Origin: Escherichia coli
Lineage (GTDB): Bacteria > Pseudomonadota > Gammaproteobacteria > Enterobacterales > Enterobacteriaceae
DNA: 64,000 nt
Direction: 5' to 3' (one strand)
NCBI RefSeq assembly: GCF_030013595.1
Contig: NZ_CP122768.1
Shown: positions 42,001-45,000 of the stretch, one piece after another
How the letters are laid out: the number at the start of each line of letters is the position of its first letter
Numbering within the stretch: the stretch's first letter is position 1
Program-made: the position numbers

Positions 42001-45000
42001 AATAATTCAGGCCACAACTCAGTGAGGCGGTTAACGCGCCTGCGGTTTTTGCGCTGGCGTTTGGTCATATGCCGCCACGGTGTCGCCCCTGTGGGCTTCT
42101 GCTGCGCTTTCTGGTTACCGGGCATCACTTTATGCGCCGATGTGGTTTTATCCTGCTCCTGCGCCGCCTGCGTCGTTTTCTGCGGCGTGCCGTAAATGCC
42201 TTTCGGTTTTCTGTTAATGGTCAGCTTAGTCATGCTTTGCCCCATCGTTTTTACTGGTTGCTACGTTGCCCAACGGCACTGACACAACATTCTGTTTTCA
42301 TTTTTAACATTCCTGATTTTTTAATTCCTCACCTGCTGCACAGTGAAAATTTATGAAGTTAATAACAATATGATTTTAAATGTATTTTTAAGTACTCACT
42401 TTTTAATCCTTATATATACGCAAAAGTGAGGTAAATAGTTAAGTTTTAGTTAATATCTTGCATGGTGTGTTTTTTAACCTACCTGTTATTTTTATTACCT
42501 CATTTCTATTAACTCACCATTCCTCACTTTTGTTCCTCACTTTTTATTATTCTTGTTCTGCTCCTCAGTCGTTTTCTTTATTGTTGTAATCTGTTGTTTT
42601 GCAATGTGTTTTTAACTCCTCACTTTTTGACCTATATACAGGTGAGAAAGTGAGGAGTGGCGTTGATTTTTTGTTAAATTACCCGCCATCCTCACTTTTG
42701 CTCCTCACTTTTTACAGTGGGCGCACATAATCACCGTCAATAGCGATTACGCCGTCGCTTTCCAGCTTGTACAGCCAGCGCCGGAAGTTTTTCATTTCAT
42801 ACCCCAGCTTTTTCATATCATCGCGGAGAAGGGCGATAGTGCACGCCTCCCCGTGTGCTGTTCGCGTTCTGATGCACTGCCATAGCGCAGCGTGATTTTC
42901 CGTCTTGTTCCCGGCCTCCTCGATGCGTTCCAGTTCAACAGGTGGGCGCGGCTTATCCACAACCACCAGCGACGTGATTAACTCCCCGTCAGTGTCGGTA
43001 AAAAGCTCCACCACGCGTAAATCATATGCAGCCTCTTTCAGTTCCTCCGCGTCCTTCATTTTGGTGCAGGAGATAACCAGGGCTTCACTGTCCGCACCTT
43101 CACGGCGAATACGGTATTCAGCGTCCAGAGATGCACGAAATGCACTGGAACCACGCGCCCCTTTTGTTTCATCCTTGCCGGAATGGTGAACCACCAGTAC
43201 CGTGGCCCCTGTGCGTCGTTTCAGTTCGTCACATCCACGGATAAACGCCCCCATATCCCGCGCGTCATTTTCATCATTACCGCCAAAGCAACGCGCCAGC
43301 GTATCCAGAATAATCATGCGTACCGGTTTACCCGTTTCCCGTTCAACCTGACGGGAAGCGATGACCATTTCATCAACATCAAGCGGGACCGCCGGAAAAA
43401 TCGGGCGGTTTACCAGGTACAGATTTTTCACCCGTTCATCATTAACGATTTCCCATGCTTTGATACGACGAGGAACACCGATCCCGCCCTCACCAACGAC
43501 ATACATAACCGCACCATGTACAACCCTGCGACCTCCCCAGTGGCGACCAGTGGCAACATGACACGCCCAGGAACACGCGAGGAACGATTTATAGGAACCG
43601 CTCGCGCCGTATGTGCTGCACAACGAATTAGCCGGAATCACGCCCTTAACGACATAATCAAGCTGTGTGTCGTATCCTGCAGATCCAATACTCATTGGTA
43701 GCGTGGTTTTTCGCTGGCTGTATTGCTCGTCAGTAAGTATTTCCCCGCGCTCTGCCTGTTCGCGGATCCGTTGCAGGTAGTCGTGCCAGTTCTCCAGCTT
43801 CTGGCTGTGCATTCCCTCAGGGTAATAATTCGCATCCCGTACACCTGCCGCCGCCAGTTTTTGCCCGATGGCATTAATATTTGACGGCTTGATGTGGCCT
43901 GCCTTGTACAGCCGGACACAATAGCGACCATCGTCGATAATTTTCAGGTCTGCCAGTTCGTCAAGCTGGCTGTCTCCCAGCCATACAGGCGGAACATTGT
44001 CGCCAGCAAGTCGCCCGTCCTGTTCCTGCCATTGTTTCGCGTGCGCCCAGGCATCACTACCCGCAAAAATAATGACTTCGGTCATTTTGTCGTGTGGCTG
44101 TTTTTTTAAGTTCGGTGCCAGTTTCATTTTGTGCCCCTGAATGCGTTAATCATGTTTTTCATTTTCTGAATATTTGCCCGTGCCTTTGCGTTGCTGGTGG
44201 GCTGTTTGCGTGGTGTGGCCTGTATCAGTGAAAAATCACGCCGGAACTGATAAACAGGCATCACGCAGTCGTAGCTGTACCCATCACGGCGGTAAGTAAC
44301 GCACCGTCCGGCAATACTTTTAATCGTTACCGTGCCGCCGTAGTTATCCCGGAAAATATCGCCGGGGCGGATTTCAGGCCGAGGGAGACCACTGGCAGTA
44401 AAGCCAGAATTTTTCTTTTTCATGGTTTTATTTTCCTGTCAGCAGTTCCGGTTTTATTTCCGCACGAATACAGAGTTCAGAAAAAAATTCAGGAGAACCA
44501 ACAATCTCATTACTTTTCAGTCGGCATTGTGATTTCACTTTCCCTTTATCCAGGTAAACCAGTATGCGTCCGGTGAAATCATCTGGCACACTCAGGGTAA
44601 TTGTCATTGTTGCTTGCTGATTATCCATGATTCACCCCCTGAATAACCTGATAACCGCAACTGGTCAGCAATTCGATAAATTCCGGCAGTGTTCCGAAAC
44701 AGCAATCATCTCGCAGCCGTTCTCGGGATACTTCAACGCCGTTTTCGTAGTGACTCACCATGCGTCCGGTAAAATGCAGATCATCATCGTGATGGCTCGT
44801 TAACGGCTTAATCAGTCGCGCACGTTCTGCCAGCTCCAGCAATGCTTCAACGCTTCCGGCAATTGCACCATCCGGCAGGTGATAATTACTTGCCACGCGT
44901 CCATTCTCCACGTTAACCAGTAGCTGCCCGGTGAATTTCTCATCAAACTGAATGCTGTTAAGGTCAGAAATTGACAGGTTAATCATGGCGTACCTCCTGG

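What the first reader, a model, noticed from the sequence alone, without database searches (positions are those of the whole stretch)
44428..44986. Internally duplicated small-protein module in the element's leftward operon
ORF 44621..44986 contains two copies, and the adjacent ORF 44428..44628 one copy, of a module with the signature FTG(Q/R)(L/I/M)(L/V)V...(E/D)(N/K)G(R/K/V)(V/E). This points to gene and domain duplication within the operon. The operon position between the regulator and rep is where satellites often encode helper-interference or derepression factors.
Basis: seen in the sequence. Interest (0 to 1): 0.4.

Follow-up and report, generated by a model that had tools for sequence, protein, structure and literature searches.

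The report
Rem-like antirepressor modules in a satellite
Two small overlapping genes in a phage satellite (PICI) carry three old, diverged copies of a ~55-residue module related to Rem, a prophage antirepressor, and they sit where satellite P4 encodes its helper-derepression protein, so they probably inactivate a phage repressor, although no experiment has tested this.

Summary
ORF A (44621..44986, 121 aa) holds two copies and ORF B (44428..44628, 66 aa) one copy of the same module. Smith-Waterman z-scores are 6.6-15.7, and none of 2000 shuffles per pair reached the observed score.

The duplication is old, not a recent local event. The copies are 23-31% identical, and the N- and C-modules of A each have their own orthologues in proteins only 24-38% identical to A.

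The module forms a small family of about 100 clusters. Most members are 60-90 aa single-module proteins found in the early operons of PICIs and prophages. It is homologous to the C-terminal 50 residues of Rem from the E. coli Qin prophage (profile-profile probability 97%, E 7e-11; Pfam PF27490 'Rem'). Published genetics show that Rem relieves repression by DicA.

The operon is collinear with the left operon of P4. A and B occupy the slot that in P4 holds epsilon, the helper-derepression protein, which is not homologous to them.

The best reading (confidence ~0.45) is that these are translationally coupled antirepressor-like proteins made when the satellite is induced, with A acting as a covalently linked pair of modules. 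The target is unknown. No LexA box, no significant similarity to Gifsy GftA, and no solved or predicted structural relative was found. Interest is moderate.

The parts
44801..44986 (-). ORF A, N-terminal Rem-like module (residues 1-62)
   Evidence: Domain 1 of the module profile (i-E 1.3e-32). AF2 predicts a beta-hairpin (E21-27, E30-37) plus a helix (H46-55) at pLDDT ~80. It aligns to Rem residues 35-80.
44621..44800 (-). ORF A, linker and C-terminal Rem-like module (residues 63-121) plus stop codon
   Evidence: Domain 2 of the module profile (i-E 7.2e-26). AF2 predicts E75-81, E84-91 and H100-109, with a disordered linker at 58-67. It ends in the family's conserved ...GYQV motif.
44428..44628 (-). 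ORF B, single Rem-like module (66 aa)
   Evidence: phrog_340 E 4.8e-17. It groups with the single-module proteins P0113/P0117/P0118. Its Salmonella counterpart lies in the same place, directly upstream of DUF4222. Its start overlaps the stop of A by 8 nt.
44543..44577 (.). 35-nt DNA core repeat, B copy (encodes FTGRILVYLDKG)
   Evidence: the repeat finder family D1, reference copy.
44739..44773 (.). 35-nt DNA core repeat, A C-module copy
   Evidence: Family D1, 69% identity. Database variants of A are joined here, e.g. P0046 at FTG.
44901..44935 (.). 35-nt DNA core repeat, A N-module copy
   Evidence: Family D1, 77% identity.
44979..45344 (-). Icd-like / P4 Kil-like gene immediately upstream; its stop overlaps the start of A by 8 nt
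   Evidence: NCBIfam phage_ICD_like E 5.8e-23. phrog_6196/1743. Its N-terminus matches the start of P4 Kil, BLASTP E 3e-5.
44124..44423 (-). DUF4222 gene immediately downstream of B
   Evidence: Pfam DUF4222 E 2.7e-24. Weak similarity to P4 orf151 (E 0.022). The module-DUF4222 adjacency is conserved in Salmonella and in O157:H7 elements.
42712..44127 (-). RepA-type helicase (AAA_25), the satellite replicase; last gene of the coupled series
   Evidence: Pfam AAA_25 E 2e-44. phrog_2850. 4-nt overlap with DUF4222.
46420..46626 (-). AlpA-family regulator of the element
   Evidence: Pfam Phage_AlpA E 4.5e-8. AlpA activates downstream PICI genes in EcCICFT073 (PMC6092414).
47125..48366 (-). Tyrosine integrase of the element (P4-type, 413 aa)
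   Evidence: ORF list. The same gene carries the Arm-DNA-bind_3, Phage_int_M and Phage_integrase domains in L016.
45547..45849 (+). Divergently oriented YlcI/YnfO-family gene facing the operon; a possible regulator of the element itself
   Evidence: NCBIfam YlcI_YnfO_N E 2.9e-16. phrog_6522 E 5e-46. Weak hit to an Rv0623-like transcription factor.

Best explanation
A and B are members of the Rem family of small phage antirepressor-like proteins (Pfam PF27490). They lie in the early operon of a phage-inducible chromosomal island (PICI), an element of roughly 10.7 kb inserted in rclA. The operon reads Icd/Kil-like, A, B, DUF4222, RepA. It is a chain of genes with 4-8 nt start/stop overlaps, so A and B are probably made by translational coupling whenever the operon is switched on; in PICIs that switch is AlpA, after a helper phage becomes active. 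Each module is predicted to be a long beta-hairpin followed by a helix. The most likely mechanism is the one shown genetically for Rem and biochemically for the Gifsy antirepressors: the protein binds a phage repressor and removes it from its operator. Here that would keep a helper or co-resident prophage, or an incoming helper, in lytic development, which is what the satellite needs in order to be packaged. A would act as a covalently linked pair of different modules and B as a separate single module. That gives up to three diverged recognition units. Shown here: the homology among the three modules, the homology to Rem, the collinearity with P4, purifying selection, and conservation of the slot in other PICIs. 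Inferred only: repressor binding, the identity of the target, the pairing of modules, and the timing of expression.
For: The three modules are homologous. An exhaustive profile search of 1.84 billion representative proteins found 117 hits at E<=1e-3, most of them 60-90 aa single-module proteins, including a Rem homologue, P0200. Profile-profile comparison of the module alignment with a Rem-family alignment gives probability 97.1%, E 7e-11 over 50 columns, which is the whole module. With only window-type modules it gives 91.8%, E 7e-7, and against K-12 Rem alone 95%, E 3.6e-8. In the reciprocal test, a Rem-only HMM scored 104 of 207 family proteins above the best of 3760 shuffled decoys (8.5 bits), with A at 10.1 and B at 13.7 bits. 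Precomputed Pfam PF27490 'Rem' hits lie on proteins 82-86% identical to A (P0022, P0024), on every Rem homologue, and on a Bro-N+module fusion. Rem expression raises dicBp expression 165-fold, which the authors interpret as antirepression of DicA (PMC10448788). The module is found fused to Bro-N and to AntA antirepressor-type domains. P4 has the order vis, eta/kil, epsilon (helper derepression), orf151, orf106, alpha with 8-nt overlaps. The window's Icd-like protein matches P4 Kil (E 3e-5), which places A and B in the epsilon slot. The same slot holds a module in a Salmonella PICI and in the O157:H7 PICI. In prophages, single-module genes lie in the early-left operon downstream of the CI-like repressor, as published for FsoA of Fels-1 (PMC3121763). 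The Gifsy repressor-antirepressor complex is A2B2, which fits the idea that a tandem protein mimics a dimer. pN/pS for A is 0.13-0.39.
Against: A and B share only about 25% identity with Rem over 50 residues, and each scores only just above the decoys against a Rem-only model. The exact A and B sequences carry no precomputed Pfam hit. Antirepressor activity is documented for one family member, by overexpression genetics only, and direct binding of Rem to DicA has not been shown (PMC11430063 says 'unknown mechanism'). Other candidate antirepressors tested in the same study did nothing, so specificity is narrow. Similarity to the biochemically characterised Gifsy antirepressor GftA is not significant here: E 0.0023 at probability 12%, and family against family E 0.018 and 0.32. 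There is no LexA box in the window. No candidate target repressor lies in the window. PICI genes are thought to switch on only after the helper is already lytic (PMC6092414), which weakens the need for a helper derepressor. pN/pS for B is only 0.59-0.67. The AF2 model is of moderate quality (mean pLDDT 73.5, pTM 0.38), and it says nothing about whether the modules pair.
Confidence: 0.45

Rival explanations
1. The modules are protein-binding adaptors, but the target is not a helper repressor. They might act on the island's own regulator, for example the divergently encoded YlcI/YnfO-family protein, to lock in induction. Alternatively they might act on a host or helper protein, as host take-over, interference or anti-defence factors.
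For: The gene sits in the variable 'Bro zone' of Gram-negative PICIs, where cassettes come and go (PMC10111431). The slot varies between strains: 74-aa and 77-aa unrelated cassettes appear, and B is absent in one strain. A YlcI/YnfO-family gene faces the operon. The helper is already lytic when PICI genes are activated.
Against: The only functional datum for the family (Rem) points to antirepression of a phage repressor. The fusions are to antirepressor-type Bro-N/AntA domains. No evidence links the module to YlcI/YnfO.
Confidence: 0.25
2. The modules are accessory factors for satellite replication that work with DUF4222 and the replicase, for example in loading or in origin recognition.
For: The adjacency module-DUF4222-replicase is tight and conserved with three different replicases: RepA here, DUF5906 in L013 and DUF927 in Salmonella. 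The genes are translationally coupled to the replicase. One protein fuses a DnaG zinc ribbon to the module (P0163). An iteron-rich probable origin lies just downstream of RepA.
Against: In prophages the module lies in early-left operons far from the replication genes. Rem lies in the nin/Q region of Qin. One related island lacks B. The primase fusion is a single truncated sequence and may be an artefact.
Confidence: 0.12
3. The similarity among the three modules is real, but the genes are decaying passengers without a current function.
For: Many database variants of A are internal deletions that join the two modules, some of them out of register (P0035, P0036, P0038, P0046, P0050). pN/pS for B is 0.6.
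Against: A is under purifying selection (0.13-0.39). The two-module architecture is kept in proteins only 24-38% identical to A. DNA matching A+B is found in 689 of 5426 complete E. coli genomes. Start/stop overlaps and ribosome-binding sites are intact.
Confidence: 0.05

Closest known systems
Rem of the E. coli K-12 Qin cryptic prophage (b1561, 83 aa; Pfam PF27490 'Rem')
   Same: Homologous over the whole module: hairpin plus helix, Rem residues 35-80 (probability 97%, E 7e-11). Both are small early-region proteins of temperate elements. Rem relieves DicA repression 165-fold when expressed (PMC10448788).
   Different: Identity is only about 25%. Rem has an extra N-terminal half-hairpin and sits in the nin/Q region of a lambdoid prophage. 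A is a tandem of two full modules and B has its own N-terminal strand. They lie in a satellite, in a coupled operon with the replicase. The target and activity of A and B are untested.
P4 epsilon, the helper (P2) derepression protein (Pfam PF25738)
   Same: Same position in a collinear operon: after the eta/kil (Icd-like) gene and before orf151/DUF4222 and the replicase, joined by 8-nt overlaps. Both are small proteins of a phage satellite.
   Different: No detectable homology (hhalign probability 0.04%; no PF25738 hit on A or B). The element here lacks P4's sid/delta/psu genes and has the gene content of a PICI.
Gifsy/Fels antirepressors GfoA, GftA, FsoA (Lemire et al. 2011, PMC3121763)
   Same: Small size (~70 aa). 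A similar predicted layout of hairpin(s) followed by a helix. GftA aligns in the same register. FsoA, like the prophage members of this family, lies in an early-left operon controlled by the phage repressor. Published PSI-BLAST searches from GfoA and FsoA led to Rem.
   Different: The similarity is not significant in my tests (E 0.0023-0.32). There is no LexA box and no dinI/irsA neighbours here.
Slot genes of characterised E. coli PICIs (EcCICFT073/EcCIEDL933 type)
   Same: The O157:H7 island at roxA/pepT has int, HTH, Icd-like, a 70-aa single N-type module, two cassettes, DUF4222 and RepA. It belongs to the same element class and has the same slot. AlpA activates the downstream genes (PMC6092414).
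   Different: Those islands carry one module where this one carries three. The genes are annotated only as hypothetical and have not been studied. I did not confirm that L084 is EcCIEDL933.
Phage P1 immI operon (c4 RNA, icd, ant), from my own knowledge
   Same: An Icd-type gene is followed by, and coupled to, an antirepressor gene.
   Different: P1 Ant proteins are large and unrelated. No C4/isrK-type RNA was found here.

Membership tests
Rem family (Pfam PF27490) | Sequence match to the family profile | tested here: inconclusive
   The local Pfam copy lacks PF27490; Rem itself gets no hit. Precomputed PF27490 hits exist on proteins 82-86% identical to A but not on the exact A or B. My own tests support membership: profile-profile probability 97%, E 7e-11, and a Rem-only HMM gives A 10.1 and B 13.7 bits against a best decoy of 8.5. 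Homology is supported. Passing Pfam's gathering score was not shown.
Rem family (Pfam PF27490) | Small single-domain protein (~65-90 aa) of a temperate element's early region | tested here: met
   B (66 aa) fits. A (121 aa) is a tandem of two modules, an architecture kept in P0105, P0108 and P0109. Both lie in the island's early operon.
Rem family (Pfam PF27490) | Relieves repression by a DicA-type repressor | not testable with these tools
   Needs a reporter assay such as dicBp-lacZ (PMC10448788).
Gifsy-type LexA-controlled antirepressors (GfoA/GftA/FsoA) | Sequence similarity to GfoA/GftA | tested here: not met
   hhalign of the module profile against GftA: E 0.0023, probability 12%. A GftA-family alignment against the module: E 0.018, probability 2.5%; against Rem: E 0.32.
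Gifsy-type LexA-controlled antirepressors (GfoA/GftA/FsoA) | LexA box upstream; dinI-antirepressor-irsA operon | tested here: not met
   No CTGT-N8-ACAG anywhere in the window. The neighbours are Icd-like and DUF4222.
Gifsy-type LexA-controlled antirepressors (GfoA/GftA/FsoA) | Binds the repressor as an A2B2 complex and releases it from DNA | not testable with these tools
   Biochemistry is required (PMC3121763).
P4 epsilon / Derepression family (PF25738) | Sequence match to PF25738 | tested here: not met
   Epsilon hits PF25738 at E 2.9e-50. A and B do not. hhalign of the module against epsilon gives probability 0.04%.
P4 epsilon / Derepression family (PF25738) | Position between the eta/kil gene and the replicase in the satellite's early operon | tested here: met
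   P4 map. Match between Kil and the Icd-like protein, E 3e-5. 8-nt overlaps in both operons.
Gram-negative PICI (the element that carries the genes) | Integrase, then AlpA, a variable 'Bro' zone, a replicase, and a few late/packaging genes; ~10 kb; no full set of phage structural genes | tested here: met
   int 47125..48366, AlpA, RepA, ProQ/FinO, PerC, a DUF2213 protease-like ORF and a TerS-N-like ORF. The organisation follows PMC10111431 and PMC6092414. Induction by a helper was not tested.
MORN-variant / YwqK-type hairpin repeats | Many tandem ~23-residue hairpin repeats | tested here: not met
   Long repetitive proteins matched only profile positions ~15-45, the hairpin, in many short stretches. 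The helix half is absent. I treat this as resemblance of a motif, not membership.

The most novel reading that the evidence does not exclude
PICIs may not only wait for a helper to become lytic. This island would carry a battery of three diverged Rem-type antirepressor modules, two of them fused into a single-chain pair, that inactivate non-cleavable DicA/Gifsy-type or other repressors of resident or incoming phages. That would let the island trigger or lock in helper induction as P4 epsilon does for P2, but with an unrelated protein family and with several specificities. A side effect could be derepression of Qin dicBF, giving division arrest and exclusion of phages that depend on ManXYZ.
Probability: 0.2. 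Interest if true: 0.65.

Novelty: new variant of a known kind. Interest (0 to 1): 0.4.

Why it matters
How Gram-negative PICIs sense and manipulate their helper phages is poorly understood. AlpA is known to be required, but the small genes between alpA and the replicase are all annotated as hypothetical. Placing these genes in the Rem antirepressor family, and in the slot equivalent to P4 epsilon, gives a concrete and cheap hypothesis to test: satellite-encoded antirepressors that induce or hold helper prophages in the lytic state. The analysis also extends the Rem family, which has one characterised member and no structure. The family now comprises about 100 sequence clusters, with a defined hairpin-helix module, recurrent tandem forms, and fusions to Bro-N/AntA domains. 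If the function is confirmed, prophage cross-talk through antirepressors would include satellites. DNA matching these two genes occurs in about 13% of complete E. coli genomes.

Tried and rejected
- **Family libraries:** local Pfam-A and NCBIfam gave no family for A or B. The local Pfam copy predates PF27490.
- **Phage records:** tblastn of A against 50,697 phage records found no match.
- **Homology to P4 epsilon:** rejected.
- **Link to Gifsy GftA:** I built a 21-sequence family from viral contigs, but profile-profile scores were not significant, so I do not claim it.
- **Regulatory signals:** no LexA box and no C4/isrK/CI-type immunity RNA by Rfam at E<=0.1.
- **MORN/YwqK-like repeat proteins:** these matched only the hairpin half, and I rejected them as relatives.
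- **Extra cassettes:** the 74-aa and 77-aa cassettes in related islands are not modules.
- **Literature:** searches for PICI or satellite antirepressors and for DUF4222 found nothing on these genes.
- **Recent local duplication:** rejected because of the orthology pattern.
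Full report
**The observation.** On the minus strand, ORF A (44621..44986, 121 aa) and ORF B (44428..44628, 66 aa) exist as described. Smith-Waterman alignment of A(1-62), A(63-121) and B gives scores of 56, 79 and 47. These are 9.1, 15.7 and 6.6 standard deviations above shuffled controls, and none of 2000 shuffles per pair reached the observed score. Both proteins hit one PHROG family of unknown function, phrog_340. A hits it with two stretches, and a profile built from the modules finds two full domains in A. At DNA level only a 35-nt core, which encodes FTGxxxVxxxxG, is still recognisable, in three copies of 69-77% identity.

**Age of the duplication.** The modules share 23-31% identity. 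Proteins only 24-38% identical to A (P0105, P0108, P0109) keep the two-module layout. Their N-modules group with the N-module of A and their C-modules with its C-module, while B groups with the single-module proteins P0113, P0117 and P0118. The tandem is therefore old and has been maintained, and B is a separate old paralogue. This is not a recent duplication inside this operon. Databases do contain deletion derivatives of A that join the two modules at various points, for example P0046 exactly at FTG. The repeats are therefore still a substrate for rearrangement.

**The element.** The genes lie in an island of about 10.7 kb that interrupts rclA. The N-terminal part of rclA ends at 37862 and its C-terminal part resumes at 48556. 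The island encodes a P4-type integrase, AlpA, an Icd-like protein, A, B, a DUF4222 protein, a RepA/AAA_25 helicase, ProQ/FinO, PerC, a DUF2213 protease-like ORF and an ORF with a small-terminase-like N-terminus. This is the published layout of Gram-negative PICIs: integration zone, variable 'Bro' zone, replication zone, late zone (PMC10111431; PMC6092414). A and B lie in the variable zone. No minus-strand terminator-like site falls between the Icd-like gene and RepA. The genes from Icd-like to RepA are linked by 4-8 nt overlaps or a 4-nt gap, so they probably form one translationally coupled unit.

**The family.** Word-based searches found only close relatives, all unnamed. An exhaustive profile search of 1.84 billion representative proteins found 117 proteins at E<=1e-3. 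Most are 60-90 aa single-module proteins with the consensus ...FTGRVLVyvENGkV.S...L.ddE.vaTL..F.ELA..AGY.V.pP. Two-module forms occur in several lineages. The module is also found fused to Bro-N (P0140), to AntA (P0051) and to a DnaG zinc ribbon (P0163). Some long repetitive proteins matched only the hairpin half, and I do not regard them as relatives.

**Genomic contexts.**
- In a Salmonella island the order is Bro-N, Icd-like, three cassettes, module, DUF4222, DUF927 primase.
- In an O157:H7 island it is Icd-like, a 70-aa single module, two cassettes, DUF4222, RepA.
- In related E. coli islands unrelated 74-aa and 77-aa cassettes are inserted, or B is missing.
- In prophage-like contigs the gene lies in the early-left operon downstream of a CI-like repressor.

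DNA matching A+B occurs in 689 of 5426 complete E. coli genomes, and in 199 of them the match covers at least 80% of the query. It is always annotated as hypothetical.

**Link to Rem.** Precomputed Pfam labels showed PF27490 on two proteins 82-86% identical to A, and a later output gave the family's name as 'Rem'. The 83-aa Rem protein of the K-12 Qin prophage aligns to the module profile with probability 95%. A 13-sequence Rem alignment aligns with probability 97.1%, E 7e-11, over 50 columns covering the hairpin and helix. With only window-type modules the result is 91.8%, E 7e-7. All Rem homologues carry PF27490, and so does the Bro-N fusion. In the reciprocal direction, a Rem-only HMM scored 104 of 207 family proteins above the best of 3760 shuffled decoys. 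A (10.1 bits) and B (13.7 bits) are only just above that limit of 8.5 bits, and the exact A and B have no precomputed Pfam hit. Homology at family level is well supported. Formal Pfam membership of A and B is borderline.

**What Rem does.** Ragunathan et al. (PMC10448788) found Rem by PSI-BLAST from the Gifsy and Fels antirepressors. They showed that its expression raises dicBp transcription 165-fold and causes DicB/DicF-dependent filamentation, which they interpret as antirepression of DicA. A later preprint still calls the mechanism unknown. Lemire et al. (PMC3121763) showed that the Gifsy antirepressors bind short, non-cleavable repressors, release them from DNA and form A2B2 complexes, and that FsoA sits in the left operon of Fels-1. 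I could not confirm a sequence link between the module (or Rem) and GftA. hhalign gives E 0.0023 at probability 12%. With a 21-sequence GftA family it gives E 0.018 against the module and 0.32 against Rem, although the alignments fall in the same register. There is also no LexA box in the window.

**Synteny with P4.** The P4 left operon reads vis (the AlpA homologue), eta/kil, epsilon (helper derepression), orf151, orf106, alpha, with 8-nt overlaps at eta/epsilon and epsilon/orf151. The N-terminus of the window's Icd-like protein matches the start of P4 Kil (E 3e-5), and DUF4222 resembles orf151 weakly (E 0.022). A and B therefore occupy the position of epsilon, although epsilon is not homologous to them. 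This looks like two unrelated proteins filling the same slot.

**Structure.** With an 81-sequence alignment AlphaFold gives mean pLDDT 73.5. Each module is a long beta-hairpin plus a helix (about 80 pLDDT), the linker (58-67) is disordered, and there is no confident relative orientation (pTM 0.38). No solved or viral predicted structure resembles it. A unit this small probably needs a partner, which fits with dimers or with binding to a target, but that is inference.

**Most likely mechanism (confidence about 0.45).** When the island's early operon is activated, A and B are made by coupled translation. They bind a phage repressor and keep it off its operators, which favours lytic growth of a helper or co-resident prophage. 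A would act as a fused pair of different modules and B as a separate unit.

**Rivals.**
- Another protein target, such as the island's own YlcI/YnfO-family regulator or a host or helper factor (0.25).
- A replication accessory role, suggested by the conserved adjacency to DUF4222 and the replicase (0.12).
- Decaying passenger genes (0.05).

The main weaknesses are the low identity to Rem, the single characterised family member, the absence of any candidate target in the window, and the published view that PICI genes turn on only after the helper is already lytic.

**Verdict.** The finding is real and can now be placed: diverged members, one of them in tandem form, of the Rem antirepressor-like family, in the epsilon-equivalent slot of a PICI. 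It is a new variant of a known kind and of moderate interest (0.4). Its value is that it offers a cheap and specific experiment on how PICIs may manipulate helper repression.

Noticed in passing
window 44979..46415 (-): A 478-codon open frame starts (GTG) 4 nt after the alpA stop. It runs antisense through two plus-strand genes that belong to strong PHROG families (45547..45849, YlcI/YnfO; 45907..46107). Only its last ~130 residues (the Icd/Kil-like part) match any family. Gene callers report a 328-aa version in other genomes (L016 6022..7008). It recalls P4's long eta frame, which is coupled to vis, but I have no explanation for it.
   Followed up: partly
window 42300..42715: An AT-rich stretch just downstream of RepA holds at least 8 copies of CCTCACTTTT in both orientations, plus a 22-nt perfect-stem palindrome region (42615..42658). 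It is probably the island's replication origin. Rfam's only hit here is a chance miRNA-like hairpin.
   Followed up: partly
window 36615..37862 and 48556..48711; L001; L016-L019: The same island family sits at different chromosomal sites: inside rclA here, inside cas5 of the type I-E CRISPR-Cas operon in strain ETEC1747 (splitting the cas operon), and next to yejM in other genomes. The integrases at the rclA and yejM sites are the same length (413 aa). The junctions here share only about 7 bp (CACGAGA). A 16-bp repeat, AACGTGTAGCTAAAAA, lies near both ends (37914, 48442).
   Followed up: partly
window 44124..45344; L002, L004, L007, L008, L012-L015: The small genes of this slot are joined by a stereotyped 8-nt overlap, ATGnnnTAA. 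C-termini read ...H(D/G/A) and N-termini M(I/H/D/R/C)(N/D). The same overlap is seen in Salmonella, in metagenomic relatives and in P4 (eta/epsilon/orf151). It may serve translational coupling and may also act as a junction for cassette exchange.
   Followed up: partly
window 39702..41013 (-): Two adjacent ORFs match different parts of one 545-residue PHROG profile (phrog_6216), in permuted order. The upstream ORF (40420..41013) matches profile positions 405-544 and the downstream ORF (39702..40355, DUF2213/protease-like) matches positions 115-315.
   Followed up: no
homologues of A (P0035, P0036, P0038, P0046, P0050, P0051, P0001): Public databases hold many rearranged versions of A. Some are deletions joining the N- and C-modules in or out of register. 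One fuses A to the downstream 77-aa cassette (196 aa), and one fuses an AntA domain to the C-module. The locus is recombinationally active.
   Followed up: partly
L005 6652..6903 (K-12 rem) and L006 11464..11685 (GftA): Rem and GftA each appear to have an extra N-terminal hairpin that resembles the hairpin of their own C-terminal module (Rem: DGLYAVCVENGNLVSHYRI; GftA: LRVTITDAKGIELLSFRL). Partial internal duplication may therefore recur in these small antirepressors. Separately, the LT2 Gifsy-1 and Gifsy-2 records carry an identical 73-aa protein after dinI.
   Followed up: no
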